Positions 11,381 through 52,006 of a stretch of 52,006 nt of DNA are shown in pieces (the stretch's first letter is position 1; every line of letters begins with the position of its first letter). Source of the stretch: a virus. The notes beneath the pieces are model-generated. The model searched no databases and was not told the DNA's origin. It saw only the letters and a program-made list of their open reading frames with translations. The stretch spans positions 1-52,006 of IMG/VR virus record IMGVR_UViG_3300045988_180472; one strand, 5' to 3'. The translations under genes were made by a program, and so were the position numbers.

Positions 11381-11412
11381 GGTACGATTTTTTGAACTCG
11401 CCCGTAACTCGA

Positions 11413-11703: not shown

Positions 11704-11706
11704 AAA

Positions 11707-22301: not shown

Positions 22302-22424
22302 TTATTGGCTCGTTTCGCCTTCATCGTCATCATTTTCGCCGTCATAAATGATGTCGTCGTCTGTACATACAAACTTTGAATTGCGATTGGCGCCGTCTTC
22401 ACGCGTAATATCAGTCTGTGACAT
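22302..22424 (-). CDS. possible small acidic protein (40 aa), antisense to the late module
   Basis: ATG at 22424 with an AAATGGAGG RBS at ideal spacing. Product MSQTDITREDGANRNSKFVCTDDDIIYDGENDDDEGETSQ. Uncertain. Confidence 0.25.
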   Translation of the reverse strand: MSQTDITREDGANRNSKFVCTDDDIIYDGENDDDEGETSQ

Positions 22425-22498: not shown

Positions 22499-25339
22499 AT
22501 GGGCCAGAAAACGCTTTGGGATTCTCTCAAGAGGCTGGCGAAGGACGGATGGATTACCATCAAGCCGAATGGCCGGCGCAACAAAGGCCAGCCCGTTTTG
22601 CTTGGCGAGAATGGCGAAATTCTTGGCGGCATGGGCGGCAAGTTTAACGGCCTCAAGATGAAGGACGTCAAAGAGGCCAATAAGAAGCTCAAGCAGAAGA
22701 ACGAGTACGCTAAAAGCGGCCATTCCAAGGGCGAAAGTCCTGAGTTGTACAACGCGCCGATTCCTTCAGCTGCTCCTAATGCGCCGGCTATCCCGGGCGA
22801 TTACAAGAATTCTCCCGATTTCAAGAAGCTGACGCCTGACGCCCAAACCATGGTGAATCAGACGGCGGCGCACATCAAGAAGTTGCCGCTCGCCAAGATG
22901 GCAGAACACGGTCCCGCCCTGTATGAAGAGCTCGACAAGGTGATTAAAGAGCTGGCGAATAACGGTTCCAAGTTCGATTCCAAGGTCTCCGAAATGATGA
23001 CGAACTTGAACATCGCAGCCATGTCAGCAGCGACTGCCACGCCGACGCCTCCCAATCAACCTAAGCCGTCTAAATCGGAGACCAGTCAGTTTGAAGGTTA
23101 TGACAAGCTGTCGAGCCTGAATGCGAGCGAAATTGATAAACACGCCAAGGTTATCAATGAGAGCAAGGCGGCGCCCGAGGACAAGGCGTTCATGATGGAC
23201 GCGCTGAGACAGGCGACGTCCTATATGGCAGAGAATGGAATGGACGCGGCCGCAGCTAAAGTCTTGAGCGGCATCAATGGCGTTTGGGTGGCGTCGAGCA
23301 ATCCCGACGCGCTCAAGAAGGCAAAAGACGCGTTGTCCGGCTTGCTTGGTGAGATGAACGCGACCGTAGAGCTGGTGAACGCCGGCGGAACATACGCCAG
23401 CAAACAGGAAGCCGGACAACCAGCTCAACCGGCTCAACCAGCTCAACCAGCTCAGCTCCAAGCCGAAATTCCCCATACGCAAAAAGCGGACATTTCTCAG
23501 TACCAGCAGTTTGCTGGTTATAGTGGCCTTGACAAGTACACCAAGAACTGGTTCGATGAAAAAGCCAACGCGCTGATGAAGGCTGATATGAGTCAGTCCG
23601 ATAAGGACATGCTGACGTATGGCATGCAGTTGGCGCTCCAAAATGGTGTCGATCCCAAGAAGAAGGCTGAAAAGTATGGTGGCAAGTTCTTGGGTAAAGC
23701 GCTTGGCGTGATGGATGCTATTGGTGGTATTGCGCAGGCCAATAAGCAGAACAATCAGAAGATGCTCGACTTCTACAAGAATGCCGCTAAGCAGTCAATC
23801 GAGGCCTTGGGTGGAACCACGCAGGGCGCGTCGAATACGCCAGCTGCCACCACACCGAGCTCGGTATCCCCGACGCCTTCCGCAGCTGGTGAAATTCTGC
23901 CGAGCCAGAAGGGTAATCTTAAGGATTACAAGAAATTCATGGGCTATAACAGCCTGAATATGACAAGCAAGATGGTTCTGGATGACGCTGTTCAGAGCCT
24001 CCAAAAGGCGATGTCTGATATGAATCTGGACGTCGCCGATATGGCGAAAATCACCAAAGGCGTTCAAGTAGCTCTCAGCAAGTCTGTAGACGGCAAATTG
24101 GGCCCCGATGTCCAGCATATGCTGATTGCGGCGAAGAGTGCTGCTAAAAAGCTCTATGGGTCAGAAGCGTATAATGAGGCGATAACGAAAGCGCATAAGT
24201 ATGCGAAAATAATCGACCAGCTGCCTATGCCTACAGAAGCTCAGCAGAAAGAAATGGCCGCGTTGGCGGCTAAGCAGGCTGAATATGAGAAGCAGCAGGC
24301 GTTCAATAAAACGCCTTCGTTCACGCAGCAGACGACGGACGCCGACCGTAACAAGTTCAAGTACGCGACTGACAAATTCTTAAGCGACCAAGCCAAGGCG
24401 GATGTAGCGGCTATTCCCAACACGCTGCAGAATGGAAAATTCGCAAAAACCAAGCATAAGAACAAGTTCGAACAAGAACTTGGCGAAGGCGGTGACTCGT
24501 TTAAGAAATACTCTGGTATGGCTTACGGGCTGATGAAGTCGAGCAATAAAGACCTCGCAACCAAAGCCCAGAATATTGCCGTAGCAGTAGCTAACGGGCA
24601 AATGGAAGGTAGCAAGGCTATTTCATTGCTTCAGAGCATGGACGCCATGCAGAAGGTCAAAGACTACACTGACCCCAAAAGCGAGCCGCCAGCGTATACC
24701 AGTATCCACAGCGATGACATTCATAACTCTGGGACGTTCAAGGCTTCAGCTTTGCCGCCCGATCCGAAAGCGGCTGTGATGCAATATACGGGTAATGCCT
24801 ATGCGTCCTTAAACGGCCAGTTACGGCAGAACCAGAAGCTGAGCGCCAAAAATAAGAAGTTGATGGATGATATAAACAAGGCCTTCGCATTACCTGAAGT
24901 CAAGGCGAAGGACAATCTCACAGTCTACCGTGGAATTACGTCCACGCAGCTTCAGCATTTGCCGATTGGTGGCACGTTTACGAACAAGGGGTTCGTTTCG
25001 ACATCTTCTGATGCCTATGAGGCGTCGAAATTCGCCGGCGATAATGGCGCGTTGATGGAAATTCGGGTAAAGAAAGGCCAGCCTGCACTATCGGTCAAAG
25101 ACGTGTCTACATTCCCGGGTGAAAAAGAAGTCCTTCTTCCTACGGCGACCCAATTCACGGTGGTTGGGAAGAAAATTGGTCCGGGAGGCCGTCCTGTGCT
25201 GATTGTGGATTACGTCCCGCCCGCGAACGTCGCAAAAGACCGAGCTTTGACTTACCTGCAACGAGCTGGTTGGGCAAGTACGCCTAAAGACGATGCTGAG
25301 CGCCGTCAAGCCATATTTGACGCGCTGCGTCGCATGTAA
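22499..25339 (+). CDS. large head-module protein with three ~100-aa N-terminal repeats and a C-terminal arginine-type ADP-ribosyltransferase domain (T4 Alt-like; probable capsid-packaged effector)
   Basis: C-terminal region has YTGNAYASLNGQLR (NAD-binding helix), then TVYRG (catalytic Arg), FVSTSS (STS) and FPGEKEV (ExE) with R-to-STS and STS-to-ExE spacings of ~30-40 residues. PAQ x4 linker. Three repeats each containing (F/Y)xGYxxL. RBS GGAGAAAAATAA before the ATG. Confidence 0.75.
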   Translation: MGQKTLWDSLKRLAKDGWITIKPNGRRNKGQPVLLGENGEILGGMGGKFNGLKMKDVKEANKKLKQKNEYAKSGHSKGESPELYNAPIPSAAPNAPAIPGDYKNSPDFKKLTPDAQTMVNQTAAHIKKLPLAKMAEHGPALYEELDKVIKELANNGSKFDSKVSEMMTNLNIAAMSAATATPTPPNQPKPSKSETSQFEGYDKLSSLNASEIDKHAKVINESKAAPEDKAFMMDALRQATSYMAENGMDAAAAKVLSGINGVWVASSNPDALKKAKDALSGLLGEMNATVELVNAGGTYASKQEAGQPAQPAQPAQPAQLQAEIPHTQKADISQYQQFAGYSGLDKYTKNWFDEKANALMKADMSQSDKDMLTYGMQLALQNGVDPKKKAEKYGGKFLGKALGVMDAIGGIAQANKQNNQKMLDFYKNAAKQSIEALGGTTQGASNTPAATTPSSVSPTPSAAGEILPSQKGNLKDYKKFMGYNSLNMTSKMVLDDAVQSLQKAMSDMNLDVADMAKITKGVQVALSKSVDGKLGPDVQHMLIAAKSAAKKLYGSEAYNEAITKAHKYAKIIDQLPMPTEAQQKEMAALAAKQAEYEKQQAFNKTPSFTQQTTDADRNKFKYATDKFLSDQAKADVAAIPNTLQNGKFAKTKHKNKFEQELGEGGDSFKKYSGMAYGLMKSSNKDLATKAQNIAVAVANGQMEGSKAISLLQSMDAMQKVKDYTDPKSEPPAYTSIHSDDIHNSGTFKASALPPDPKAAVMQYTGNAYASLNGQLRQNQKLSAKNKKLMDDINKAFALPEVKAKDNLTVYRGITSTQLQHLPIGGTFTNKGFVSTSSDAYEASKFAGDNGALMEIRVKKGQPALSVKDVSTFPGEKEVLLPTATQFTVVGKKIGPGGRPVLIVDYVPPANVAKDRALTYLQRAGWASTPKDDAERRQAIFDALRRM

Positions 25340-33045: not shown

Positions 33046-33092
33046 GGTCCTCTGCCAGTAAACTCGCTAAGAGCTCGAATTTTCACGGGTAG

Positions 33093-33137
33093 CCGAAAAA
33101 TTCGAGTTCTTAAAACTCATTTTAAGGCCTCGAAATG
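33093..33137. repeat. copy of the dispersed element (CGAAAAATTCGAGTTCTTAAAACTCATTTTAAGGCCTCG)
   Basis: Matches the CTTAAAACTC / TTTTAAGGCCTCG halves. Confidence 0.7.
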
Positions 33138-33210
33138 GATTTTGCGGGCTAATACTCACAACCGCAATTTCGACGAGTTTTATAAGAAAGTCTAATAATA
33201 CGGAGCACTT

Positions 33211-33666
33211 ATGCGTAAATCCATCACCGTGTCCATCGATGACCGCGGGAAGCAGCTGCAATTCAAGATTACGGAAATGCCCGCCACCAAATTGGAGCGC
33301 TGGCTCACTCGCGCCCTGTTGCTCATTGCGGCGGCGAATAAGGGCGAAGCCGATGGCGGCGTAGATTTGCAAGCCGCAGCAAGCCACTTGGCTTCTCAAG
33401 GCATGCGTGCTCTTGCCAACGTTCGGTATGAAGACGCTGAACCGTTGCTGGAGGAAATGCTGAACTGCTGCACCCGCATTGACGCTGGCGTTGACCAGAA
33501 GTGCACGTCCGATTCCGTGGATGGTTACATCGAGGACGTGCAGACGCTGTTCAAGTTGCGGATGGAGGCCATGAAGCTCAACCTCAGTTTTTTTACCGAA
33601 AGCCCGTCGACCTCCCAAAGCAACGACAATACTCTCAAGCTCAAGGTTCCGGCATCAAAGGCTTAG
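33211..33666 (+). CDS. tail assembly chaperone (G-like, 0-frame product)
   Basis: 151 aa, between the tube and tape measure genes. RBS ACGGAG. Confidence 0.65.
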   Translation: MRKSITVSIDDRGKQLQFKITEMPATKLERWLTRALLLIAAANKGEADGGVDLQAAASHLASQGMRALANVRYEDAEPLLEEMLNCCTRIDAGVDQKCTSDSVDGYIEDVQTLFKLRMEAMKLNLSFFTESPSTSQSNDNTLKLKVPASKA

Positions 33667-33863
33667 CTGAATACGCGAACGTCACCAATGTGGTTGGAAC
33701 GTTGGTAGCACGGCAAATGGCGACCTTGCACGAGCTCCAAACCGTATACAGTTATACGGACGCCTTGGATATTTTCGAAACAATCCAAGTGGCTGACTAT
33801 AATAAGTGGGTTGTTGACGATTTCCACCAGCAAGAAGCCAAGCGCAAGCACAAAATCAAGTAA
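33211..33863 (+). CDS. tail assembly chaperone GT-like product via programmed -1 ribosomal frameshift at TTTTTTT (33588..33594)
   Basis: The overlapping ORF 33501..33863 is in the -1 frame. The T7 slippery run sits inside the overlap (AGT TTT TTT ACC). This matches the conserved G/GT arrangement upstream of tape measure genes. Confidence 0.65.
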
Positions 33864-33905
33864 AAGAAAAGGCCGCGAGCTCATTACTCGCGGCCTCTTC
33901 GCATT

Positions 33906-34166
33906 CTAGTAAATGCGCTTGCTGCCTTGCCATGAAAATTCGTATTGCCTCATCAAACCATCGCTCGTACGCACGTTCATCATGTAGACGCCTTGCTTGT
34001 CATTTTTGGCAAGCGATTCAGTCATTTGGAGCAATGACTGCTTAATCGCCTCTTCAAGGCAGTCCTTCAAAGTGACGCCGCAAAAGAACACAGGCGTCAT
34101 CCCATCAGGCTCGCGAACAATTGACATGCGCACAATAAGCGCTTCTCTAATTTCCACTTTGTCCAT
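33906..34166 (-). CDS. hypothetical protein (86 aa), reverse-oriented cassette within the tail module
   Basis: The ATG at 34166 overlaps the upstream stop (TAATG). GGAGGTGG RBS. Confidence 0.45.
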   Translation of the reverse strand: MDKVEIREALIVRMSIVREPDGMTPVFFCGVTLKDCLEEAIKQSLLQMTESLAKNDKQGVYMMNVRTSDGLMRQYEFSWQGSKRIY

Positions 34167-34435
34167 TACGCCACCTCCGCGTACCAAGTGAAGTCGATGG
34201 CAGGGATGTCAACGGTCACCGTCCACGGGTAATCCGTGATGATGCGGTTGTGCGCGTCAGGCGAGCTGCAAGCGCGGCGAGCGTTGCGCACGTGGTTGAC
34301 GACCTGCTGACAGATGAAGTTCTTGTCGGAGACTTTAGAGTCAAACGACACGTCAGTGATGGGCTCGTAAACAGTGTCGCCATCAGCGAGGTCGATGGTG
34401 ACGTAAACAGCGACGTAAACCTTCTATACGTTCAT
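34166..34435 (-). pseudogene. gene with an in-frame amber (TAG) at codon 4 (34424..34426), downstream of a strong RBS+ATG (34433..34435); the remaining 61-codon ORF begins with GTG
   Basis: GGAGGA-n6-ATG AAC GTA TAG, then open in the same frame for 86 more codons to 34166. Confidence 0.45.
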
Positions 34436-34607
34436 GATATTCCTCCAAGTTGTTCGTTGATTTCTTTATGCCATAAGCCAATGGTGATGTAAACGGGTTT
34501 TCAGCTGGAAAACGAATATTTTTTCAATTTATCCTCTTGGGCGGTAACCCTTATATAATGAATTCAAGTTGTTCTTCCGGCGAAGGTGAAAGGGTTGAAG
34601 AGAAAAA

Positions 34608-34639
34608 GGCTGTATGTTAATCATACAGCCTTTCTTCTT
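34608..34639. terminator. bidirectional rho-independent terminator
   Basis: Hairpin GGCTGTATG-TTAAT-CATACAGCC, flanked by an A-run upstream and TTTCTTCTT downstream. Confidence 0.7.
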
Positions 34640-34644
34640 ATGTG

Positions 34645-34911
34645 TTACTTCACAGTAACCAACTGTTCAATGTACATATCATCTTCTAACACATCACTGT
34701 AGAGCTTTAAAGACAACGTTTGCTTAGGCATGACGCCATGCTTCATCTTCATTTCTAAGTTCTTGGCTAAGCCTTTGAGAACAAACCTACAATTAGATTC
34801 GTTGAAGACGTGGTATTCAAGTGTACAAGTTGGTTCACAACCTTTATAAAAGAAGTTGTGCAATTCAACAGGTTCACCCATGCCATCGCTAATAGTAACA
34901 ACTGCCAACAT
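34645..34911 (-). CDS. AT-rich moron protein (88 aa), unknown function
   Basis: GGAGG RBS before the ATG at 34911. Markedly lower GC than the flanking genes. Has its own downstream terminator. Contains CEPTC...C. Confidence 0.5.
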   Translation of the reverse strand: MLAVVTISDGMGEPVELHNFFYKGCEPTCTLEYHVFNESNCRFVLKGLAKNLEMKMKHGVMPKQTLSLKLYSDVLEDDMYIEQLVTVK

Positions 34912-35040
34912 AGTGTACCTCCATTCATTATTCACTATTCACTTGTAGCAACCATTTGTTAAAGACAGTATGCACCAACCAAATGAACTTGTAAATAGCT
35001 TTTGGGCGATTTTATGAAAAAATTTTTCTAGGAGCCACCC

Positions 35041-43551: not shown

Positions 43552-46194
43552 ATGGCCTATGATTTCAAATATATCCGTACAGGCACGGGCGAACTGTCTG
43601 GCCCGTCCATGATTTGGCAGACTGAGCAAGCTCTGACGCAAATTGGTACGTATGCCGATGAAGCGAATACCAAGGCTGATGAAGCTCTGGATACGGCCAA
43701 TACCGCGCTCAATAAAGCCAATGAGGCGGCTGAAGCTGCCGAGCGAGCTCAGAATACGGCTGACGCAGCTCAAGCCGCCGCTAACCATGCTCAGGAGACC
43801 GCCGACGCTGCTCAGGTTGCGGCGGACAACGCCCAAGATACCGCTGATGAAGCTCTTGAGACCGCCCAGAAGGGCGTAGCTGACGCAGCCAAAGCTCAGG
43901 CTGCTGCAGACAAAGCTCAGGCCACAGCTGATGCAGCTCAGGACGCGGCCGATGCTGCTCAGCTGACGGCGGATAACGCCCAGAATGCGGCTGATAAAGC
44001 TCAGGACGCGGCTGATGCTGCCCAGCAGACTGCCAACGATGCGCTCAATGCCACCAGCAACTCGCAAGGCTCGGCTAACGTCGCACAAGATACGGCTGAC
44101 AATGCTCTGCTTGTAGCGCAGTCCACTCAGCAGGCATTCTATGAGCACGTTCACGAGTATACTTCTCAGATTGCCAAGGCGCTGGGAGAATTCGAGGCGG
44201 ACAACACTACGGTGAATTTCGACAATTTCACCGATTCCGTCAAGCTGTACATCACCAGCCCTGATGCGTCCATTACAGGGCCTAACGGCAAGGTTAACTC
44301 ACCGTTCTACCTGTGGAACTTCACTACGGACGACCGTTCGTCTACTGCCCAGTTTGTATACGCAGCGAACGGCCTTACGTACAGCCGATATGGTACCATA
44401 GGGCAGAACGACCTCGTCCCCGGCACCGATACTTACACGCTCGAGAACAACAGCAAAAACGCCATCCTCACGTGTAATGGCGTCGCCAGTGGTATGACTA
44501 TCACCAAGAGCGGTTCGCTGACCAACACGTGGACCGCGTCCGATACTCATAATTCGTATATCACTGGTACGTGGAACATCAAAGGTATCACCAACGGAAC
44601 AATCGATCTCAACGGCGTTACAATCGCCAACTTGTCCGATACGGGATTCTATCCTACTAGACAACAACGACTACAGGAAGACAACACCAGCTTCGTAATC
44701 GAAGACATGACCTATAGCGCTGACGACGGCCTGACCATCAAGGTGACAGTCCAGTGGCTGAATATCGATAGTCAAATTAGCTGGGACAGCTGGAAGGTGG
44801 ACACGCCTGCGGTGGACACGTCTGCAGTTGACAACGTGACTATCAAGTATAATTCGTCTAACGAGCTGCAGGCGAAGGACGTGGCGATTGGGGGGAATCA
44901 GGGTGATCTTGCGAGCGCACGGGGGCTGTTCAACGCAAAAAGTACAGGGGCCGTAGACTGCAACACCCTCACGAATCAGGGCGTGTATGCCATTCATCAA
45001 TCGGGCACGACGAACGGCCCCGGCTTCCCGATAAAGATGTTGCTCTTGTGTTCCGCAAATTCTTTGTTGACCACGCAACTTGGCATTTCTTCGGGCGGCG
45101 CAATGGCTACGGCTCAACGGCTTGCCCTGAGAAACAGAAACAACGATGGCAAATGGAGCAAGTGGGCGGAGTTTTTCAATAGTCTTAGGACTGGTGACGG
45201 CCTCAAATCCATCAACGGCATCATCTCCGTGCCCGAGTATGAGGGCGCGACGGCATCGACAGCCGGGACAAGCGGCCTTGTACCGCCCGCAACCGCCGGG
45301 CAACAGGATAGCTTTCTGACCGGAGGCGGGGAATACAAGCCCGCGCTCTCGACTGGCGGCGGCGTCCTGACGGGCAGCATGCAGATCAATGATCCCGCAA
45401 ATGTGATTGGGTCGGCACCCTCTACCGATACTGAGCGCGGCCTGTTTCTTGGCGACAAAAACAGCGTGGTCATGGGCGGGTTCGATGTCATACAGCGCGC
45501 ATCGGATAACGCTAAGTACGCGCAAGTCTATTCAAAAAATAGCAGAGGAGATATAGCGTCCCTTGCTGCTGTGACTTATGAAGACGGCACGAGAGAACTT
45601 GTGGCGGATAGCCCTCTCCAAATCAACGACATACAAATAAAACAGGTCGTTGACGGCGGAAGAAGGGTAATCGTGCTCTCTGGGGCGCGTGGCAAGGAAG
45701 GGTATTCATTTCGTTTTTCCCCGGACACGGGGGAGGCATATATGGATGGCCGTGTAATACATGCGAAAGCCGATACCGCCGGATACGCAGATACCGCCGG
45801 AAGTGCTCCGGCAAATGGCGGGACGGCATGGGCCGCGAACCGCCTGTGCTTAACAGAGGGCGGTGAAATAGCATGGAGTTGGACGGGACAAGGAGGTCAA
45901 CCCAAGTGGTTGTGGGGAGGCAATGACGGCGTCAACATGCGCGTCTACAACCCCGCCAATTTCAGCGTGAACTATGCGAACAGTGCGGGCAGTGCTCCTG
46001 CGAACGGAGGGACGGCATGGGCGGCGACCGTTACGCCCAATGTTGTAAATGTCCACTATTCAACATTGCCCGCAGGAGGAACATGGCTGGTCATGAGTCT
46101 TGGTAATAACGATGGTGGTCAATTTCAAGAATTGAATTTTTCACAGGTCGCAGGGGGCACGAGAACATTCGGGCTTGCTATCAGAATAGCTTAA
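43552..46194 (+). CDS. long tail fiber protein with Ala-rich coiled-coil shaft
   Basis: 880 aa. Many DTADAAQ / ADKAQ heptad-like repeats across 43700-44100. Gly/Thr-rich distal region. Confidence 0.65.
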   Translation: MAYDFKYIRTGTGELSGPSMIWQTEQALTQIGTYADEANTKADEALDTANTALNKANEAAEAAERAQNTADAAQAAANHAQETADAAQVAADNAQDTADEALETAQKGVADAAKAQAAADKAQATADAAQDAADAAQLTADNAQNAADKAQDAADAAQQTANDALNATSNSQGSANVAQDTADNALLVAQSTQQAFYEHVHEYTSQIAKALGEFEADNTTVNFDNFTDSVKLYITSPDASITGPNGKVNSPFYLWNFTTDDRSSTAQFVYAANGLTYSRYGTIGQNDLVPGTDTYTLENNSKNAILTCNGVASGMTITKSGSLTNTWTASDTHNSYITGTWNIKGITNGTIDLNGVTIANLSDTGFYPTRQQRLQEDNTSFVIEDMTYSADDGLTIKVTVQWLNIDSQISWDSWKVDTPAVDTSAVDNVTIKYNSSNELQAKDVAIGGNQGDLASARGLFNAKSTGAVDCNTLTNQGVYAIHQSGTTNGPGFPIKMLLLCSANSLLTTQLGISSGGAMATAQRLALRNRNNDGKWSKWAEFFNSLRTGDGLKSINGIISVPEYEGATASTAGTSGLVPPATAGQQDSFLTGGGEYKPALSTGGGVLTGSMQINDPANVIGSAPSTDTERGLFLGDKNSVVMGGFDVIQRASDNAKYAQVYSKNSRGDIASLAAVTYEDGTRELVADSPLQINDIQIKQVVDGGRRVIVLSGARGKEGYSFRFSPDTGEAYMDGRVIHAKADTAGYADTAGSAPANGGTAWAANRLCLTEGGEIAWSWTGQGGQPKWLWGGNDGVNMRVYNPANFSVNYANSAGSAPANGGTAWAATVTPNVVNVHYSTLPAGGTWLVMSLGNNDGGQFQELNFSQVAGGTRTFGLAIRIA

Positions 46195-46206
46195 AAAGGA
46201 GGTATT

Positions 46207-46671
46207 ATGTCTGAATATGGAAATATATTCCACCGTGCATTTGACGATTCCTACGTCATTATAAAAAACGGCTTCCCGTATCACGTTTACCCTTATGCCG
46301 CCGAGTTCGCTGAACTTTGGGATGAGGTCTTTGCCTACGCCGAGGCGCACCCCGAATGCGTGACAGAAGAGCAACCTTACGCTGCACCCACGCCGACGCA
46401 AGAAGAACTCGCGGCGAACATACGCGCCGAACGCGATAGGCGTATTACTGCAACAGATTATCTCGTCATGCCGGACTATCCGCTTGATACGGATAAGCTT
46501 GAAGAGATCAAGGCGTACCGCCAAGCCTTGCGCGATATTCCTCAGCAACCGGGCTTCCCTTGGGGTGGACCTGACGATCCTGCGTGTCCGTGGCCTGAAA
46601 AGTTTGTTACGCAAATCGACTGGCCTGAGCTGACCGTCAACGCGAACATCAAAGCCAAGTTATCCTTCTAA
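46207..46671 (+). CDS. tail fiber assembly protein (Tfa / gp38-like chaperone)
   Basis: Conserved Caudo_TAP-like pattern RDRRITATDYLVMPDYPL...YRQALRDIPQQPGFPW. RBS AAAGGAGG. Confidence 0.75.
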   Translation: MSEYGNIFHRAFDDSYVIIKNGFPYHVYPYAAEFAELWDEVFAYAEAHPECVTEEQPYAAPTPTQEELAANIRAERDRRITATDYLVMPDYPLDTDKLEEIKAYRQALRDIPQQPGFPWGGPDDPACPWPEKFVTQIDWPELTVNANIKAKLSF

Positions 46672-46674
46672 TGA

Positions 46675-46710
46675 AAAAGCCCCGCTCTCACAAGCGGGGC
46701 TTTTCTTTTA
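46675..46710. terminator. bidirectional rho-independent terminator between the convergent late (+) and early (-) transcription units
   Basis: AAAAAGCCCCGCTCTCACAAGCGGGGCTTTTCTTTT. Confidence 0.85.
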
Positions 46711-46715
46711 CTCAT

Positions 46716-46934
46716 TTACAGCGTGGCAAGGCACTCGTTTATGGCGCTGCACACCTCGTATTCTACGCGTAATGTGCAAGCAGCAACGAACAGTACAAGC
46801 AGGCAATAACCTAAACCAAATTTAGTGCTGTTCGTCAGCATATAGTCCACCACTATTGCTATCAGTACTGCCCCAACTGCCGCAAAACCAAGCGCCGCGC
46901 TGACAAGGCTGATAATCATAAGATAGGTAATCAT
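46716..46934 (-). CDS. small membrane protein (72 aa)
   Basis: Two hydrophobic helices. RBS GAGGTAA. Confidence 0.5.
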   Translation of the reverse strand: MITYLMIISLVSAALGFAAVGAVLIAIVVDYMLTNSTKFGLGYCLLVLFVAACTLRVEYEVCSAINECLATL

Positions 46935-47371
46935 TGCATTACCTCGTCATCGTCATCGTCGTCTTCGCCTATGCCGTCATCAGTGAAATCGTACTCGCTG
47001 ACTACCGTGCGCGCTTCAAGCCCGCCCAAGTTACACGGCAGGCCATGAGGATACGTGAAGCCATCAGCAATGTCGCAATGTCCGTCGTCGCACAGATAAG
47101 GGCAATTGCAATCGCTGTAATAGCACCGAGTGGTATGGCGCAAATGGAGCTCATGCGCGAAATCCACATAGCAGATAACAGCGCCCATGTCTTCACGCGA
47201 GCGTAATGGGAAAATATGGCGCCTGCCATCATGCAGCAGCTTCAATTCATTCTCAGACGGCACCCAGCGTATGGTGCCTTCACGCTGAGGATGCTCGCCT
47301 TCCAAGAGCCACATGCCATTGTGCCGTACCAGCCTAACGCTAATGTATGTGTCGAGCTCGCTCAGTCCCAT
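46931..47371 (-). CDS. hypothetical Cys/His-rich protein with poly-Asp C-terminal tail
   Basis: CYYSDCNCPYLCDDGHCD cluster. C-terminal GEDDDDDDEVMQ. RBS GAGGACGAC. Confidence 0.5.
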   Translation of the reverse strand: MGLSELDTYISVRLVRHNGMWLLEGEHPQREGTIRWVPSENELKLLHDGRRHIFPLRSREDMGAVICYVDFAHELHLRHTTRCYYSDCNCPYLCDDGHCDIADGFTYPHGLPCNLGGLEARTVVSEYDFTDDGIGEDDDDDDEVMQ

Positions 47372-47622
47372 TAGTCGTCCTCATCATATTCAAAAGGTTC
47401 AGCAGGCTGGTCCACCAAGACTGTGAAGCGTTCCTTCATGCCATCAAACTCATACATGGCTTGGAAATAGTGGACATTCGTGTCTTCAAAGAGTCGCTTA
47501 TCAGCAGGCGACGCAATCCAGCACTTCCGCAGCTTGCCAGCTTCGTCTATCACATAGATATGGTCGTTATCGCTGGTGTACTCAACGCGCACGGGAAAGA
47601 ATTGCGTATACGGCGTTACCAT
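47371..47622 (-). CDS. small acidic hypothetical protein (83 aa)
   Basis: ORF with ATGA overlap. C-terminal EPFEYDEDD. Confidence 0.45.
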   Translation of the reverse strand: MVTPYTQFFPVRVEYTSDNDHIYVIDEAGKLRKCWIASPADKRLFEDTNVHYFQAMYEFDGMKERFTVLVDQPAEPFEYDEDD

Positions 47623-47843
47623 TCGACGCCCTCCACTTCTTGGTCAAGATCGATAATCAGCACGTCGTCTTCATCGACATAGGCCATGGCGTACAGCTTG
47701 CGCACTTCATCCAACAGCAGAACGTCCTCTTCGCTCGCGGCGCGTTCGATAAGGATGCTCTTGTCTTCGTTGTACGCCAGCACAGACTCGTTGCGCGGAA
47801 ATTCGCTCAGCTGAATCTTAACGATAAACCAATCAGTCGCCAT
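47616..47843 (-). CDS. small highly acidic hypothetical protein (75 aa)
   Basis: RBS GGAAGGAG. Asp/Glu-rich throughout. Confidence 0.5.
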   Translation of the reverse strand: MATDWFIVKIQLSEFPRNESVLAYNEDKSILIERAASEEDVLLLDEVRKLYAMAYVDEDDVLIIDLDQEVEGVEW

Positions 47844-47846: not shown

Positions 47847-48884
47847 TTACACTCCTTCCGCCTTAAGCTGCTGGTCATTCGCGCGAACGTCATTCATAAG
47901 CTGAGCGAGGTAAATCAACTTCTGCAGACCATTGGCGTACTTCATAATCGAGCTGGCCCAATACTTTTGCGGGCGCGTTTTAGGCTGGCAATAGTAGATG
48001 GTGTTGTAATTCATACCATTAGGTATAATACTGCGAGCGCCCAACATCGCACCAACAACGGCGCAATTAGTATCCGTGTCATAACCCAACTTGGTGACTT
48101 CGCCCATGATTTCTTCAAGGCTGGAACCAGTACGCAGGCCAAAAGTGAAAGCGTGCTGCAAAGCATACAGAACCCAACCATGCCCAAGAACAGGCAATTC
48201 ACCACTCACAGCTTGTATAACGCTTGGCACAATGAATGCCCGCTTGCAGAAGTCAAGCGTCATTTCTTTAATACGAGCGGGCTCATAGCCTTGCAGAGCG
48301 TAGTACAAACCGGCAATAAACGCATGGTTGGCGTCAATGCAAGTACGCGAGCGATGCGTCAGCTCGGCATCCCAAGTAGCCAAGTCTTCAATGCGTGAGG
48401 CAATGCGGCCATTACGCGTGATTTGCGCGCCATAGTTGGATAAAAAGAACAGCGCAGCAACGGGTGCAACGCGCATAAGTGCGCCGTTGCCTTGCGCATG
48501 TTCATTAATATCCATATAAATGCCAGTCCGCTGGAGTGCCGCAGCAACAGTAGACCCGCAATCGACAGGCCGCGAATAATACCAATCGCGATAAGCCGCC
48601 TTCATAGTCTTCGCGAAGTCGCCGTGGTTTGTGACGTCCGTCATATCTTGACCGTTCAGCACAACCTCACGCGCGATTTCATACACCTGCCGAAGCAGCA
48701 AACTCATCATTTCAGAATCGTCAGTTAACTGGCCCACCATGAGCTTATGCGGTCCGCCTTCAATTGGTGCAGTCAAACCATTGGGAAAGTTCTTCTGCAC
48801 CGCGTCGGGCGGATAGAACTCGCAGCCTGCGCCGATAGCGTCACCTGCAATTAAGCCAAAAATCATGTTTTCAATTCGAGTCAT
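47847..48884 (-). CDS. ADP-ribosyl-glycohydrolase (DraG/ARH family)
   Basis: GLIAGDAIGAGCEF, GQLTDDSEM, GNGALMRVAP and DTDTNCAVVGAMLGA match the ARH/DraG signature regions (Mg-binding DDT and DTDT motifs). AGGAGG RBS before the ATG at 48884. Confidence 0.8.
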   Translation of the reverse strand: MTRIENMIFGLIAGDAIGAGCEFYPPDAVQKNFPNGLTAPIEGGPHKLMVGQLTDDSEMMSLLLRQVYEIAREVVLNGQDMTDVTNHGDFAKTMKAAYRDWYYSRPVDCGSTVAAALQRTGIYMDINEHAQGNGALMRVAPVAALFFLSNYGAQITRNGRIASRIEDLATWDAELTHRSRTCIDANHAFIAGLYYALQGYEPARIKEMTLDFCKRAFIVPSVIQAVSGELPVLGHGWVLYALQHAFTFGLRTGSSLEEIMGEVTKLGYDTDTNCAVVGAMLGARSIIPNGMNYNTIYYCQPKTRPQKYWASSIMKYANGLQKLIYLAQLMNDVRANDQQLKAEGV

Positions 48885-49299
48885 AACGAGCCTCCTGCTG
48901 TAACATTTTGGCAACCAGCCCATAAACATAGGTCGCTTGTTCTTTAGTGGTGATATGGACGGTTCGCTTATCTTCAGCGCAAACAATAACAGGTTCGAAT
49001 GCCTCAGATGTCAATGACGCCTTATGGCATACGATGACAGTTCCAGCCTGCACATACTTGACGAGCGAACCTTCCAACTTCACCTTGTCACCAAAAGAAG
49101 TATACGCCATCAGCGAACCTTTGTAAACGCTTGTATGGCTGATTTTCAAAATAAAATACGTGTCGAACGGCGAGCATGGTGGAAATTCGGACATTACCTC
49201 CATAAGATGGTGATGCGCAAATGAATCGCGCGAGCTGACTATGGCCCTCCCGTCATCCACCATCAACACTGAGTCGCATGCGTACACGAGGGGCAACAT
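48871..49299 (-). CDS. hypothetical protein (142 aa)
   Basis: ORF in the early operon. No motif recognised. Confidence 0.45.
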   Translation of the reverse strand: MLPLVYACDSVLMVDDGRAIVSSRDSFAHHHLMEVMSEFPPCSPFDTYFILKISHTSVYKGSLMAYTSFGDKVKLEGSLVKYVQAGTVIVCHKASLTSEAFEPVIVCAEDKRTVHITTKEQATYVYGLVAKMLQQEARYDSN

Positions 49300-50000
49300 C
49301 AGATATCGCCCTCATTGCCGTTCTTCTTGATAATAGAAGAAATGTCGCTCATGTCGTTGTCTTGATAAGTTTCAGGCAGAGCCTCGCTTCCGTAGTCATA
49401 ATCAGTAACCGCAGTGCCAAGTTGCGTAGCCTTGACATCAGGGCGCTGAGGGCACTTGTTGCACTGGCGATACGCTCCGCACAAGCTCTTGGCGAACGTA
49501 GCGGACAAGCGCCTGCAATAAATCAACTGGTCAGCATTGCGCTGTTTCCATTCGTCAGCGCTCTCGAACGTAGCCATCTTGTGCCGCTTCTCAGTCTCGG
49601 GGTTTTTGAGCACGACAAGCTCGCCAGCTTCATTCTTGAACACCGGCATATCTCGCTTGATACGTGCATTGCTGGCGATACGCTCGCGCTCTTTTTGTAC
49701 CGACTCGGAATCGACCCACGTGTTTTGTCCCCACAAGTTGGTAGGATAGACGCTCTGGCCTTTTTCCTTTTGCTGCTCAGCAACCTTGGCACTCTCCGCG
49801 CGCTCAGCTTCCTTCTTCTTTGCCTCCATAAGCGGCTTGTCAATGGCCATGGTTTGGAGCTTGTTGCGGAAGTGGTTCATGCTGCGCATGCGATAGTTCT
49901 TACGCAGCATAGATTTTTCTTTGCACTCATCCGAGCACCAGTCGTCAATGGGGTCGTCAGTGATGAACATTTCGCCACATACTTTGCAATATTTAATCAT
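49299..50000 (-). CDS. Zn-ribbon protein (N- and C-terminal CxxC pairs), hypothetical
   Basis: CKVCGEMF...CSDEC and C...CNKC. RBS GAGGAG before the ATG at 50000. Start overlaps the SNF2 gene stop. Confidence 0.5.
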   Translation of the reverse strand: MIKYCKVCGEMFITDDPIDDWCSDECKEKSMLRKNYRMRSMNHFRNKLQTMAIDKPLMEAKKKEAERAESAKVAEQQKEKGQSVYPTNLWGQNTWVDSESVQKERERIASNARIKRDMPVFKNEAGELVVLKNPETEKRHKMATFESADEWKQRNADQLIYCRRLSATFAKSLCGAYRQCNKCPQRPDVKATQLGTAVTDYDYGSEALPETYQDNDMSDISSIIKKNGNEGDI

Positions 50001-51339
50001 CAGAATTCTCCTCAATTTCTTCGTTCAACAGTCCTAAGAACAGCTGTTGCAGGTTTTCATTCGCTTGGAGCGAGGCCAAAATACGCGTATCAATGGTGCC
50101 ATCGGCGACGATATGGTCTATGACGCACGTCTTGGTTTGTCCCATTCGCTGAAGGCGTCCGTTAAGTTGTTGGTATGTTTCCAAACTCCACTCGAGGCCT
50201 AACCAGATAATATGGTGGCCGCCAAATTGCATATTCAACCCATGGCTCAACGACCTAGGGTGGACGACGAGCAATGGTACTTTCCTCTTATTCCACGCGG
50301 AAATTATCCGTGCGGATTCGCCTGCAGGAGTTCCGCCAATGATGACCTTGGCATATGGAAATTTCTCCATAATGGCTTCCAGCTCGCTGCGAAACTGGAT
50401 GCACACGATGACTGGTTCACCATCCAAAGCCTCGAGCTTTTCAGCCAAAGCGTCCAGCTTAGCGTGGTTATCCACCAGCACGTTACGCTTCTTGTCATAA
50501 ACGCCGCCCTGCAGCAGCTGACGAACTTTAATCGCCGCCGCTCCACGCCCGTTTACGGCCACCTGAGACCCGCGAATTTCTGTTACAAGGTCCTTCAGCA
50601 GCTGCTTATAGCGCAGCATTGCCTCCTTCGGCAATTTTACTAGTGAGCGCGTGTAGACGGGCTCGTTCAACTCCAAGTAGTCACGTGCATTTAATCTGAA
50701 CGTCAGCGGCGCAACTTTTGGAGCAATATCATCAACGGCGTTCGGCTTTGGTATGAACGCGAATTTGACATTGGGGTGCTTATCGCAATAGCGCTTTCTG
50801 AAGGCTGTGATATTTTCGCCTAAAGCCGCGCCCTCATCCAGCATATAATACTGCGGCCACAGGCCTTGAATATGATTCCCTATGGGAGACCCAGATAAGC
50901 AATAAATCCGCTTGAACACAGGGCGCATAGCAAATAGCAGCTGTGTACGAACAGAGCTGTGCCCCTTGAGAAACGTCGATTCGTCAAGCACCAAAGTCCC
51001 GCGCACGAATCGCTTAATCAACGCGGGCGACTGTTTGTTGAGCCACTTCAGCCCTTCATAGTTGATAATGTACACATGGTGATGCTCGCGCGCGACCAAT
51101 TGGCGCGTGTCCCCATGCAGCACCTTGAAGGTCAAGTCTGACCGCCACTTCTGAAGCTCCTCTGGCCATGTAATGGTAGCGACGCGAAGCGGGGCAACCA
51201 CAAGTGTGACCTCTTTCTCATTCAGCAGGTGGCATAGTATGGCGGTCTTGCCCAGCCCCATGTCAATGGCAAAAAAACCCTTGTCATGCTCACGGCCCCA
51301 AGCAACGGCGCGCTTTTGATATTCTCGCAGTTGAGCCAT
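49993..51339 (-). CDS. SNF2-family (SF2) helicase/ATPase
   Basis: Motif I GLGKT, motif II LVLDEST, and C-terminal helicase motifs. 448 aa. Confidence 0.75.
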   Translation of the reverse strand: MAQLREYQKRAVAWGREHDKGFFAIDMGLGKTAILCHLLNEKEVTLVVAPLRVATITWPEELQKWRSDLTFKVLHGDTRQLVAREHHHVYIINYEGLKWLNKQSPALIKRFVRGTLVLDESTFLKGHSSVRTQLLFAMRPVFKRIYCLSGSPIGNHIQGLWPQYYMLDEGAALGENITAFRKRYCDKHPNVKFAFIPKPNAVDDIAPKVAPLTFRLNARDYLELNEPVYTRSLVKLPKEAMLRYKQLLKDLVTEIRGSQVAVNGRGAAAIKVRQLLQGGVYDKKRNVLVDNHAKLDALAEKLEALDGEPVIVCIQFRSELEAIMEKFPYAKVIIGGTPAGESARIISAWNKRKVPLLVVHPRSLSHGLNMQFGGHHIIWLGLEWSLETYQQLNGRLQRMGQTKTCVIDHIVADGTIDTRILASLQANENLQQLFLGLLNEEIEENSDD

Positions 51340-51752: not shown

Positions 51753-51780
51753 TATTTTCGCTCCACCCGTAAAAATATGA

Positions 51781-51812
51781 GAATCGCCACTTGAGTTCAA
51801 GCGGCGATTCTG
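51781..51812 (-). terminator. rho-independent terminator ending the long early operon (minus strand)
   Basis: Hairpin GAATCGCC-n12-GGCGATTC, followed on the minus strand by TCATATTTTT. Confidence 0.6.
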
Positions 51813-51817: not shown

Positions 51818-51979
51818 TCACATAAATGTCAGGTAGGAGCCTACCAATGACCCGATGCCGAAGGCTATCAGAATTTTTCCAATCAATCGTCGTCCCAAGT
51901 TGCCGCCATACTCATACATCAGCAGCCCGCCAACTATCATCGTTAGGCTCAGCATCCGCAGGTAATCCATCTGAGACAT
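51818..51979 (-). CDS. small membrane protein (53 aa), begins inside the terminal 55-nt identity
   Basis: ATG at 51979 (= 27 in the first copy) with a GAGGTGAGT RBS. Hydrophobic, IVGGLLMYEYGG. Confidence 0.45.
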   Translation of the reverse strand: MSQMDYLRMLSLTMIVGGLLMYEYGGNLGRRLIGKILIAFGIGSLVGSYLTFM

Positions 51980-52006
51980 ACTCACCTCGCTTACTTTACC
52001 ATGGCC
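51952..52006. repeat. Second copy of the 55-nt terminal identity
   Basis: Identical to 1..55. Confidence 0.9.

What the first reader, a model, noticed from the sequence alone, without database searches (positions are those of the whole stretch)
47847..48884. Early-operon ADP-ribosyl-glycohydrolase (DraG/ARH family) co-occurring with the virion ADP-ribosyltransferase: possible writer/eraser pair or anti-defence eraser
All four signature regions of ARH/DraG hydrolases are present (GDAIG...EF, GQLTDDSEM, GNGALMRVAP, DTDTNCAVVGA).

An Arg-specific ART (ExE type) and an ARH of the DraG/ARH1 type, which removes ADP-ribose from Arg, in one phage genome is unusual; T4 has three ARTs and no hydrolase.

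Possible roles:
- temporal reversal of the injected ART modification;
- self-immunity against superinfecting relatives;
- erasing host ADP-ribosylation-based defences.

The gene sits in a separate early operon with an SNF2 helicase and small acidic proteins, a typical host-takeover or anti-defence neighbourhood.
Basis: partly seen in the sequence, partly recalled or inferred. Interest (0 to 1): 0.85.

Follow-up and report, generated by a model that had tools for sequence, protein, structure and literature searches.

The report
Phage ADP-ribose eraser paired with injected writer
An uncultured human-gut phage encodes an intact DraG-type enzyme that removes ADP-ribose from proteins, plus a head-module enzyme that adds it; this is probably a writer/eraser pair of a kind already shown in bacteria and one prophage, here with the two genes far apart.

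Summary
Window 47847..48884 (-) encodes a 345-aa ADP-ribosylglycohydrolase (Pfam PF03747, E=1.5e-36). All four quoted motifs and the DraG catalytic residues are present, and the gene is under purifying selection (dN/dS 0.12-0.18).

By sequence profile and predicted fold it belongs to the bacterial DraG/Tri1/Lmo0067 branch, not ARH1 or ARH3. The 946-aa head-module protein (22499..25339) ends in an Alt/VIP2-type transferase with an intact R-S-ExE motif. Its best solved relative is Lmo0066, a toxin whose immunity protein is an ARH.

Both genes occur in all seven clade genomes examined. They are the only NAD/ADP-ribose genes found among 67 ORFs.

The functional link is inferred, not shown:
- The genes lie 22.5 kb apart on opposite strands.
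- The hydrolase does not co-vary with the strongly diverged transferase domain.
- A complete related phage genome with a head transferase has no hydrolase.

Precedents exist: Bxa/BAH in a Bacteroides prophage, Tre1/Tri1, DraT/DraG, and predicted pairs in Aeromonas phages. I therefore rate this a new variant of a known kind, of moderate interest.

One new lead: a conserved 40-aa acidic antisense gene (22302..22424) beside the transferase gene diverges in step with the transferase domain. It may encode a binding inhibitor.

The parts
47847..48884 (-). ARH gene: 345-aa DraG-type ADP-ribosylglycohydrolase (stop codon included). Catalytic and metal-site residues are E22, T54, D55, D56, D108, D269, D271 and T272.
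   Evidence: Pfam PF03747 E=1.5e-36. The listed residues are invariant in alignment A1. E22, D55 and D108 align to DraG E28, D60 and D97. AF2 model pLDDT 82, pTM 0.87, with DraG, Lmo0067 and Tri1 as top folds. dN/dS 0.12-0.18. AGGAGG lies 7 nt before the ATG.
22499..25339 (+). Head-module ADP-ribosyltransferase protein, 946 aa: a conserved N-terminal ~100 aa, a length-variable central region, and a C-terminal Alt/VIP2-type ART domain.
   Evidence: PF03496 E=1.5e-22. It lies between the MuF-like and DUF2213/Pa193_gp24 head genes. All 55 detected homologues of the N-terminal part with a Pfam record carry the ART domain, at lengths of 429-949 aa.
24749..25165 (+). ART catalytic domain (Pfam match, residues 751-889) with R (LTVYRG), STS (GFVSTSS) and ExE (GEKE).
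   Evidence: Motif residues are invariant in six sequences, including a 30%-identical one (A2). Best solved relatives are Lmo0066 at 4.5e-14, then C3, ExoT, Vip2 and Tre1. It is a divergence hot spot: 67-75% nt identity between flanks of 97-100%, with dS 0.8-1.0 against 0.25 in the backbone.
22302..22424 (-). Small antisense gene between the MuF and ART genes: a 40-aa very acidic protein (MSQTDITREDGANRNSKFVCTDDDIIYDGENDDDEGETSQ). Candidate binding inhibitor of the ART (inferred).
   Evidence: GGAGG precedes the ATG. The ORF is kept in all seven genomes examined despite 63-65% aa identity and a 9-nt in-frame indel. Independent gene callers call it as a 43-aa gene. dN/dS 0.29, dS 0.62. It is a second local divergence dip that tracks the ART allele.
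21433..22242 (+). MuF-like minor head protein (269 aa), a separate gene immediately upstream of the ART gene.
   Evidence: PF04233 E=1.1e-10.
49993..51339 (-). SNF2-family helicase, in the same gene string as the ARH.
   Evidence: PF00176 and PF00271. PHROG 62 'DNA helicase' E=2e-119.
48871..49299 (-). 142-aa protein of unknown function. Its stop overlaps the ARH start by 14 nt, suggesting translational coupling.
   Evidence: No Pfam, PHROG, NCBIfam or PADLOC match. The position is conserved in relatives.
46716..47843 (-). Four small genes downstream of the ARH: 75 aa and 83 aa acidic, 146 aa Cys-rich with a poly-Asp tail, and 72 aa membrane-like.
   Evidence: No family matches. The 75/83-aa region is variable or replaced among relatives.
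51780..51811 (-). Terminator-like hairpin (14-bp stem plus T-run) upstream of the 63-aa/SNF2/ARH gene string. A promoter-like site follows at 51606-51578.
   Evidence: The hairpin is conserved in relatives, with a G-T wobble pair changed to G-C.
46675..46704 (.). Bidirectional terminator-like hairpin between the end of the ARH gene string and the convergent tail-fibre genes.

Best explanation
The gene encodes an active, metal-dependent mono-ADP-ribosyl-protein hydrolase of the DraG branch. This is shown at the level of sequence, fold and selection; activity itself is untested.

Its most likely job is to erase arginine ADP-ribosylation written by the phage's own Alt/VIP2-type transferase (inferred). 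That transferase is made with the head proteins and is probably packaged and injected with the DNA (inferred).

The hydrolase is transcribed from a separate minus-strand unit with the replication helicase, so it should be present before late transferase synthesis (inferred). Two non-exclusive effects would follow:
- It reverses the injected enzyme's modification of host targets once that modification is no longer useful.
- It shields the infected cell from newly made transferase, or from transferase injected by superinfecting relatives.

It would act on the modified product rather than by binding the transferase. It has no Tri1-like N-terminal plug and does not co-vary with the transferase domain.
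For: - Intact enzyme: PF03747 E=1.5e-36. The DraG E28/D60/D97 equivalents and the DxDT metal motif are invariant. The ARH fold is predicted with confidence. dN/dS is 0.12-0.18.
- Branch: the closest solved relatives are DraG, Tri1 and Lmo0067. DraG and Tri1 reverse arginine ADP-ribosylation by a partner transferase (PMC8120803). Lmo0067 is deposited as the immunity half of an ART-ARH toxin-immunity pair (PDB title 8za7).
- Writer chemistry: the R-S-ExE motif is intact. The best solved relative is Lmo0066, and the search also hits Tre1, ExoS/T, Vip2 and T4-type Alt.
- Head context: the gene lies between the MuF and DUF2213 genes. This is the context read as head packaging in PMC9503650 and PMC5576092.
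- Co-occurrence: both genes are present in the window, in four IMG/VR relatives, and on one contig of the most diverged member, where the ARH is 74% identical. A further pair is inferred from matching contig lengths.
- No other NAD/ADP-ribose gene was found among 67 ORFs.
- A prophage precedent has been tested experimentally: Bxa/BAH (PMC11699363).
Against: - The genes are 22.5 kb apart, on opposite strands, in different transcription units. Known pairs are adjacent.
- Co-occurrence within one shallow clade is shared ancestry, not independent association.
- Pseudomonas phage Orisa01 has a related portal fused to a related ART and no ARH. Of the 101 GenBank phage records with a related ART and the 22 with a related ARH, the counts by host genus and the rows listed share no phage; the two full record lists were not intersected. 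So head-borne ARTs do not generally need an ARH.
- The nearest non-clade ARH relatives sit in bacterial conflict-type operons without an ART.
- Substrate, target, packaging and timing are all untested.
Confidence: 0.45

Rival explanations
1. Counter-attack eraser unrelated to the phage's own transferase. The hydrolase would remove protein ADP-ribosylation imposed by others: host toxin or defence ARTs, Tre1-like effectors from neighbouring bacteria, or Alt-like enzymes injected by competing phages. It would be an orphan antitoxin-like counter-defence.
For: - Precedent for orphan ADP-ribose erasers in lytic phages: AdfN NADAR against DarT1 (PMC11825919).
- The ARH does not track the ART allele. 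It is 99.4% identical where the ART domain is 71% identical.
- The nearest outside relatives are ARH genes in Mrr-McrBC-ARH operons, helicase-ARH pairs and phosphatase-ARH fusions. That class is predicted to undo viral ADP-ribosylation (PMC9503650), so capture from a host system is plausible.
- The small genes next to it are variable accessory genes.
Against: - To my knowledge the characterised ART-based anti-phage systems modify DNA or RNA (DarT, CmdT; PMC11825919, PMC11618068). They are reversed by macro or NADAR domains, not by DraG-type enzymes.
- No PADLOC match for the ARH.
- This reading leaves the co-presence of an arginine-type ART in the same genome as coincidence.
Confidence: 0.25
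2. Hydrolase of a non-protein ADP-ribose conjugate or a soluble derivative, such as O-acetyl-ADP-ribose, ADP-ribosylated nucleic acid, or an ADP-ribose-derived immune signal. It would serve nucleotide or NAD housekeeping, or signal destruction.
For: - ARH-fold enzymes include members acting on O-glycosidic and small-molecule substrates: ARH3 and OAADPr (PMC8120803, PMC9503650).
- The gene lies in a string that continues from nucleotide-metabolism and replication genes.
Against: - The profile and fold place it with the arginine-specific DraG/Tri1/Lmo0067 group, well ahead of ARH3.
- The DraG D97 equivalent (D108) is conserved.
- No NAD salvage, sirtuin, Nudix or macro partner is present in the genome.
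- PMC9503650 argues that phage ARH domains prefer macromolecular conjugates.
Confidence: 0.12
3. Catalytically dead or decaying ARH-fold protein: a remnant, or a binding protein only.
For: It carries two insertions predicted with low confidence (residues 111-125 and 152-162). Its Pfam score is modest compared with the bacterial relatives (127 bits against about 200).
Against: - All metal-binding and catalytic residues are kept in every clade member.
- dN/dS is 0.12-0.18 at dS up to 0.36.
- It has a strong ribosome-binding site and a conserved operon position.
Confidence: 0.03

Closest known systems
Bxa / BAH / Bsi of a Bacteroides stercoris prophage (Alexei et al. 2024, PMC11699363)
   Same: A phage-encoded, head-module (MuF-associated) ADP-ribosyltransferase that makes N-linked marks, neutralised by an ARH-family hydrolase acting enzymatically without binding the toxin. 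A second, small binding immunity protein is also present; the 40-aa antisense gene here is a possible counterpart.
   Different: - There the toxin is fused to MuF and both immunity genes are adjacent. BAH was compared with human ARH1, and the element is a prophage.
- Here MuF is a separate gene and the hydrolase is 22.5 kb away in another transcription unit.
- It is of the DraG branch.
- No integrase or repressor family was found in the genome, and the phage carries its own polymerase, ligase and nucleotide genes.
- I could not compare sequences with BAH or Bxa directly.
Tre1 / Tri1 type VI effector-immunity pair of Serratia proteamaculans (PDB 6DRE; reviewed in PMC8120803)
   Same: An R-S-E arginine transferase paired with a DraG-like hydrolase that reverses it. 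Both halves of the phage pair match both chains of 6DRE by sequence.
   Different: Tri1 also plugs the Tre1 active site with an N-terminal extension. The phage protein starts at the ARH core (its residues 2-5 align to Tri1 residues 69-73). It scores far below the Tri1 family cut-off (35.9 against 490 bits). The genes are not adjacent.
Lmo0066 / Lmo0067 of Listeria monocytogenes (PDB 8ZA7, 'ART-ARH type toxin effector-immunity protein pair')
   Same: Lmo0066 is the best solved relative of the phage transferase domain (E=4.5e-14). Lmo0067 is among the top fold and profile matches of the hydrolase.
   Different: It is a bacterial chromosomal pair. Identities are low (about 18-30%). I found no paper on it in the library, so what I know rests on the PDB title.
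DraT / DraG of nitrogen-fixing bacteria
   Same: DraG is the closest hydrolase by profile (E=1.8e-36) and fold. The E/D/D catalytic residues and metal site are shared. The logic is a timed on/off switch by arginine ADP-ribosylation.
   Different: It is not an orthologue: TIGR02662 scores 61.7 bits against a cut-off of 337. There is no nitrogenase context. The phage protein has two insertions and a long C-terminal helix (residues 310-342).
T4 Alt (injected head ART) and phage ART-ARG pairs predicted in Aeromonas phages (Iyer et al. 2022, PMC9503650)
   Same: The transferase domain is homologous to Alt of T4-like Aeromonas and Stenotrophomonas phages (27-31% identity). It sits in a head-gene context. 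PMC9503650 already predicts ART-ARG toxin-antitoxin pairs in some Aeromonas phages.
   Different: T4 itself has no ARH-family enzyme; its eraser is the NADAR AdfN, which acts on DNA (PMC11825919). PMC9503650 treats the Aeromonas pairs as toxin-antitoxin systems with coupled genes. No Aeromonas phage ARH matched this one by tblastn; Aeromonas phage Aeh1 matched only by fold.
ARG-centric bacterial conflict systems (ARH with phosphatase, Nudix/WYL regulators; PMC9503650)
   Same: These are among the nearest sequence relatives outside the clade (30-40% identity): inositol-monophosphatase-ARH, Nudix or SIR2 fusions, DSP-phosphatase-ARH fusions, and ARH genes behind Mrr-McrBC.
   Different: Here the ARH is a stand-alone protein in a phage replication-side operon, with no phosphatase or regulator partner.

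Membership tests
ADP-ribosylglycohydrolase / DraG-like ARH superfamily (Pfam PF03747) | Sequence match above the curated family threshold | tested here: met
   127 bits against a cut-off of 26.2, E=1.5e-36, covering profile positions 2-278 of 287.
ADP-ribosylglycohydrolase / DraG-like ARH superfamily (Pfam PF03747) | All-alpha ARH fold | tested here: met
   AF2 model pLDDT 82.4, pTM 0.87, 17 helices. Foldseek probability is 1.00 to DraG, Lmo0067, Tri1, MJ1187 and ARH3, with target-normalised TM 0.58-0.80 among the top twelve matches.
ADP-ribosylglycohydrolase / DraG-like ARH superfamily (Pfam PF03747) | Binuclear metal site and catalytic acidic residues (DraG E28, D60/D61, D97, D243/D245/T246 equivalents) | tested here: met
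   E22, T54, D55, D56, D108, D269, D271 and T272 are invariant in 13 sequences. The correspondence to DraG comes from the HMMER alignments and the residue list in PMC8120803.
ADP-ribosylglycohydrolase / DraG-like ARH superfamily (Pfam PF03747) | Hydrolysis of ADP-ribosyl-arginine | not testable with these tools
   Needs an enzyme assay.
DraG proper (NCBIfam TIGR02662 equivalog) | Score above the equivalog cut-off | tested here: not met
   61.7 bits against 337. It is a relative, not an orthologue.
Tri1-type dual immunity protein (NCBIfam NF041672) | Score above the equivalog cut-off, and an N-terminal extension that occludes the toxin | tested here: not met
   35.9 bits against 490. The protein begins at the ARH core, and its residues 2-5 align to Tri1 residues 69-73.
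ART/ARH toxin-immunity or writer-eraser pair (DraT/DraG, Tre1/Tri1, Bxa/BAH) | Transferase of the R-S-E(xE) class present in the same genome | tested here: met
   PF03496 at 80 bits against 23.4. R, STS and ExE are invariant.
ART/ARH toxin-immunity or writer-eraser pair (DraT/DraG, Tre1/Tri1, Bxa/BAH) | Genes adjacent or co-transcribed | tested here: not met
   They are 22.5 kb apart, on opposite strands, in different modules.
ART/ARH toxin-immunity or writer-eraser pair (DraT/DraG, Tre1/Tri1, Bxa/BAH) | Association of the two genes across independent lineages | tested here: inconclusive
   Seven of seven clade genomes have both, but they form one lineage. Orisa01 has an ART and no ARH. Genome-collection scans with the ART found nothing.
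ART/ARH toxin-immunity or writer-eraser pair (DraT/DraG, Tre1/Tri1, Bxa/BAH) | Hydrolase reverses the partner's modification or rescues its toxicity | not testable with these tools
   Needs co-expression and in vitro assays.
MuF polymorphic toxins (Jamet et al. 2017, PMC5576092) | MuF domain fused N-terminally to the toxin domain | tested here: not met
   MuF is a separate 269-aa gene (21433..22242). The ART protein has no MuF match.
MuF polymorphic toxins (Jamet et al. 2017, PMC5576092) | Alternative C-terminal toxin domains on a shared N-terminal part | tested here: not met
   All 55 detected N-terminal homologues with a Pfam record carry the same ART family. Two apparent exceptions are frameshifted fragments.
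MuF polymorphic toxins (Jamet et al. 2017, PMC5576092) | Location in the DNA-packaging/head module | tested here: met
   Gene order is terminase, portal, MuF, ART, DUF2213, cement protein, major capsid.

The most novel reading that the evidence does not exclude
A virulent gut phage controls an injected toxin-like enzyme with three unlinked or oddly placed parts. The first is a head-packaged Alt-type arginine transferase whose catalytic half exists as old, exchanged alleles. The second is a 40-aa acidic protein encoded antisense right next to it, which diversifies with the transferase domain and acts as its stoichiometric inhibitor. The third is a conserved DraG-type eraser made from an early/middle operon, which resets host proteins at a set time. 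This would be a timed, reversible host-takeover switch rather than simple self-immunity.
Probability: 0.2. Interest if true: 0.75.

Novelty: new variant of a known kind. Interest (0 to 1): 0.5.

Why it matters
Phage ADP-ribosylation of host proteins has been studied almost entirely as a one-way modification, with T4 Alt, ModA and ModB as the models. A phage carrying both an injected arginine transferase and a DraG-type eraser, expressed from different modules, would give a tractable case of reversible, timed modification during infection. It would extend the enzymatic-immunity idea (Tri1, BAH) from bacterial toxins and prophages to a probably lytic phage.

The hydrolase acts on the mark rather than on the enzyme. 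It could therefore also protect against related phages carrying different transferase alleles, which bears on competition among gut phages.

Practically, the enzyme is a compact, stand-alone candidate for an Arg-ADP-ribose eraser. None of this is shown yet. On present evidence it is a well-supported annotation plus a reasonable hypothesis that has published precedents.

Tried and rejected
1. Nucleotide searches of the ARH region, the structural region and a sister locus against GenBank phages found nothing. The phage is uncultured; the closest portal and terminase relatives are about 40-44% identical.

2. Sister-clade control. Phages whose portal is 60% identical lack the ART between the MuF and DUF2213 genes. 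They turned out to have a different genome layout. A baseplate-based walk returned only clade members, and the SNF2 query reached no sister genomes. I therefore could not ask properly whether loss of the ART goes with loss of the ARH. The ARH motif scan of IMG/VR did not hit those contigs, which is weak negative evidence only.

3. Polymorphic-toxin idea (swapped C-terminal domains): rejected.

4. Tri1-like plug, or co-evolution of the ARH with the ART: rejected.

5. ART next to the distant phage or viral-contig ARH relatives. A clade-specific ART HMM found none. Pfam on 115 neighbouring ORFs showed defence-island genes instead; only the first 25 of 92 families were listed, so an ART could have been missed.

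6. Two scans of the genome collection with ART alignments returned no relatives. A viral scan with the ART core returned only the same clade and one other contig.

7. PADLOC gave no match for the ARH or its small neighbours.

8. The Lmo0066/67 paper was not found in the library.

9. A remnant or pseudogene reading is rejected by dN/dS and motif conservation.
Full report
**Observation**

The minus-strand ORF at 47847..48986 contains an internal ATG at 48884, the end coordinate given in the finding. AGGAGG lies 7 nt upstream of it. All relatives begin there, and gene calls on public contigs give the same 345-aa product.

The protein matches Pfam PF03747 (ADP-ribosylglycohydrolase) at E=1.5e-36, 127 bits against a cut-off of 26.2. 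It matches PHROG 6572 at E=4e-23.

The second gene named in the finding is also real. Window 22499..25339 encodes 946 aa with a C-terminal PF03496/PF01129 ADP-ribosyltransferase domain (E=1.5e-22). It carries LTVYRG, GFVSTSS and GEKE, that is R-S-ExE.

**What the genome is**

The two ends of the window overlap by 55 nt and join seamlessly when compared with an independent contig. The window is therefore a complete circular assembly of about 51.95 kb. Relatives form contigs of 50-52 kb.

It comes from human gut metagenomes. No GenBank phage is close at the DNA level. The best terminase and portal relatives are about 40-44% identical.

The plus-strand block runs: small and large terminase, portal, MuF-like protein, the transferase, DUF2213/Pa193_gp24, cement protein, major capsid, an E217/Pam3-like contractile tail, and tail fibres.

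The minus-strand block holds primase/VapE, a DUF2800 nuclease, ThyX, dCMP deaminase, dUTPase, an Enc34-type SSB, family A polymerase and ligase. After the junction of the window ends it continues with a 63-aa protein, the SNF2 helicase, a 233-aa zinc-ribbon protein, a 142-aa protein, the ARH and four small proteins.

No integrase or repressor family was detected among the 67 ORFs scanned. Nor was any macro, NADAR, Nudix, sirtuin, NAD-salvage or second transferase domain. The transferase and the hydrolase are the only NAD/ADP-ribose genes found.

**The hydrolase**

A single-sequence search of solved structures finds DraG from two species, a Thermus ARH, Tri1 (6DRE chain A) and Lmo0067 (8ZA7 chain A).

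A profile of the clade plus distant relatives sharpens this ranking:

| Solved structure | E-value |
|---|---|
| DraG | 1.8e-36 |
| Tri1 | 4.7e-29 |
| Lmo0067 | 2e-26 |
| ARH3 | about 1e-15 |
| ARH1 | 7e-4 |

An AlphaFold model (pLDDT 82, pTM 0.87) gives the same order by Foldseek.

The HMMER alignments map E22, D55 and D108 onto DraG E28, D60 and D97, the catalytic set listed in PMC8120803. These residues, together with T54, D56, D269, D271 and T272, are invariant in the 13-sequence alignment.

The protein falls far below the equivalog cut-offs for DraG and Tri1. It is a member of the superfamily's DraG branch, not an orthologue of either. It lacks the N-terminal extension with which Tri1 plugs its toxin, since it starts at the ARH core. 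It has two low-confidence insertions and a confident long C-terminal helix.

An exhaustive HMMER search of 1.84 billion cluster representatives shows it is isolated. Apart from one fragment, only one representative is above 50% identity, and the next are at or below about 40%.

Those next relatives are stand-alone bacterial ARHs and fusions with inositol-monophosphatase, Nudix or SIR2 domains. In IMG/VR the 28-32% relatives lie behind Mrr-McrB-McrC, behind large helicases, or fused to DSP phosphatases, amid BrxL, HipA and AbiEii genes. This matches the 'ARG-centric' host conflict systems that Iyer et al. predicted to undo viral ADP-ribosylation (PMC9503650).

Within the clade the gene is under purifying selection. 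dN/dS is 0.12-0.18 at dS 0.14-0.36, similar in depth to the backbone genes. It is not a remnant.

**The transferase**

R, STS and ExE are invariant in six sequences, including a 30%-identical one from another phage that sits in the same MuF-DUF2213 slot (L098).

The domain profile's best solved match is Lmo0066 (E=4.5e-14). It is followed by C3 exoenzymes, ExoT/ExoS, Certhrax, Vip2 and Tre1. In GenBank phages it matches MuF- or protease-fused 'VIP2-like toxins' of actinophages, a portal-fused domain in Pseudomonas phage Orisa01, and Alt of T4-like Aeromonas phages.

Most phages with a related head module have the MuF gene directly followed by the DUF2213 gene. The transferase gene is therefore an inserted cargo gene.

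All detected homologues of its N-terminal part with a Pfam record carry the same transferase domain. Lengths range from 429 to 949 aa because residues about 68-580 are variably deleted. It is not a polymorphic toxin with swapped heads.

Packaging and injection are inferred from gene position and from the literature on Alt and MuF-linked effectors (PMC9503650, PMC5576092).

**Is the pair linked?**

For the link:
- Both genes are present in the window and in the four IMG/VR relatives.
- Both are present in the most diverged clade member, where the ARH (74% identical) and the transferase are on the same 32,226-nt contig.
- One more pair is inferred from equal contig lengths.
- The chemistry fits: an ExE transferase and a DraG-branch hydrolase.
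- Both halves resemble both halves of solved ART-ARH pairs.
- A prophage case has been demonstrated experimentally. Bxa is a MuF-fused transferase; BAH is an adjacent ARH that reverses it enzymatically without binding; Bsi is a small binding immunity protein (PMC11699363).

Against the link:
- The genes are 22.5 kb apart, on opposite strands.
- The seven genomes are one lineage, so their agreement is not independent evidence.
- Orisa01, a complete genome with a related portal-transferase fusion, has no ARH.
- The GenBank phages with a related transferase (101 records) and those with a related hydrolase (22 records) do not overlap, judged from the host-genus counts and the rows listed; the full record lists were not intersected.
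- The hydrolase does not follow the transferase allele. Contig _182178 has a 99.4%-identical ARH but a 71%-identical transferase domain.

That last point fits an eraser that acts on the mark. It fits equally well an eraser that has nothing to do with this transferase. I therefore give the own-transferase reading a confidence of 0.45.

**Transcription context**

A 14-bp GC-rich hairpin followed by a T-run lies at 51811-51780 on the minus strand. It is conserved in relatives, with a wobble pair repaired. It is followed by about 240 nt of AT-rich spacer with a promoter-like site, and then by the 63-aa gene.

The string ends at a bidirectional hairpin at 46675-46704, facing the tail-fibre genes.

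The scan's hit counts were no higher than in shuffled sequence, however, and timing is untested. The SNF2 helicase is a standard part of this replication module, not evidence of an anti-defence island. The two acidic small genes just downstream of the ARH are variable or replaced among relatives.

**A new lead**

A minus-strand ORF at 22302..22424 lies between the MuF and transferase genes. It has a GGAGG site and encodes a 40-aa, very acidic protein.

It is kept as an ORF in all seven genomes, despite 63-65% identity and a 9-nt in-frame indel. Independent pipelines call it as a gene. Its dN/dS is 0.29.

Sliding-window identity between the window and its relatives shows two dips in an otherwise 96-100% identical head module:
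- this small gene, at 78-86%;
- the transferase's C-terminal half, at 67-75%.

Both have deeper synonymous divergence (0.6-1.0) than the backbone (0.25). The small protein's alleles track the transferase-domain alleles. In effect there are only two to three alleles, so this amounts to one or two events.

By analogy with Bsi, it could be a binding inhibitor. That is a hypothesis only.

**Comparison and novelty**

The hydrolase is a new, isolated member of a known enzyme family. The pairing logic is known from DraT/DraG, Tre1/Tri1, Lmo0066/67, Bxa/BAH and predicted Aeromonas phage pairs.

Four things differ here:
- The two genes are unlinked and lie in different transcription units.
- The MuF gene is separate from the transferase gene.
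- The phage looks virulent.
- A small antisense gene sits next to the transferase gene.

ARH-fold proteins are rare in viruses. BFVD gave only 13 matches at E <= 0.001, mostly giant viruses. PMC9503650 reports them in about 5% of jumbo phages.

I rate this a new variant of a known kind, with interest 0.5. The annotation is solid. The biological idea is attractive and testable, but it has precedents and remains unproven here.

Noticed in passing
window 22302..22424 (-): A conserved 40-aa acidic antisense gene lies between the MuF and ART genes. It has its own ribosome-binding site, is kept in all seven clade genomes, and diverges in step with the ART domain. It is a possible binding inhibitor or an unrelated moron.
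   Followed up: partly
window 23150..25230 (+): The C-terminal half of the ART gene is 67-83% identical in nucleotides to relatives whose flanking head genes are 97-100% identical. Synonymous divergence in the ART domain is 0.8-1.0 against 0.25 in the backbone, with dN/dS about 0.2. This looks like old alleles exchanged by recombination rather than recent positive selection.
   Followed up: yes
window 22700..24240 (+), ART protein residues ~68-580: The central region of the ART protein is variably deleted in relatives, whose proteins range from 429 to 949 aa. The first ~65-100 and last ~365 residues are always kept. The centre therefore looks like a dispensable spacer.
   Followed up: partly
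window 1..55 and 51952..52006: The two ends of the window repeat the same 55 nt and join seamlessly against an independent contig. The window is a complete circular assembly of about 51,951 bp, and the minus-strand gene block runs across the junction.
   Followed up: yes
window 5460..7719 (-): A nucleotide-metabolism cluster: a MazZ-like dATP/dGTP diphosphohydrolase N-terminal domain protein (7396..7719), ThyX, dCMP deaminase and a dUTPase_2-family protein. No PurZ-like gene was seen. Whether the phage modifies its DNA bases was not examined.
   Followed up: no
window 47371..47843 (-); L008 about 11040..11900: The two small acidic genes just downstream of the ARH are 75-86% identical in one relative and replaced in another (15-52% nt identity), while the ARH and helicase stay conserved. 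This is a variable accessory spot.
   Followed up: partly
L012 5827..10924; L010 6193..10056; L011 6201..10921; L013 2980..4476: The nearest ARH relatives outside the clade (28-32% identity) sit directly behind Mrr-McrB-McrC genes, an SMC-like ATPase or a 1255-aa SF1 helicase, or are fused to a DSP-type phosphatase. These contigs are labelled viral but look like defence islands.
   Followed up: partly
L135 (Pseudomonas phage Orisa01) 2270..4381: A related portal protein carries a related ART domain fused to its C-terminus, followed by the MuF-like gene. The complete 45-kb genome has no ARH detectable with the clade HMM.
   Followed up: yes
window 33070..34935 (-): Several small minus-strand ORFs are embedded in the plus-strand tail module, between the tail-chaperone-like gene and the tape-measure gene. 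Gene callers call four there in relatives (L138 11495..12751). No family matches.
   Followed up: no
window 43552..46671 (+) versus L006, L008 and L009: The tail-fibre gene and its assembly chaperone are the most divergent part of the genome among close relatives (30-80% nt identity). This suggests host-range variation within the clade.
   Followed up: no
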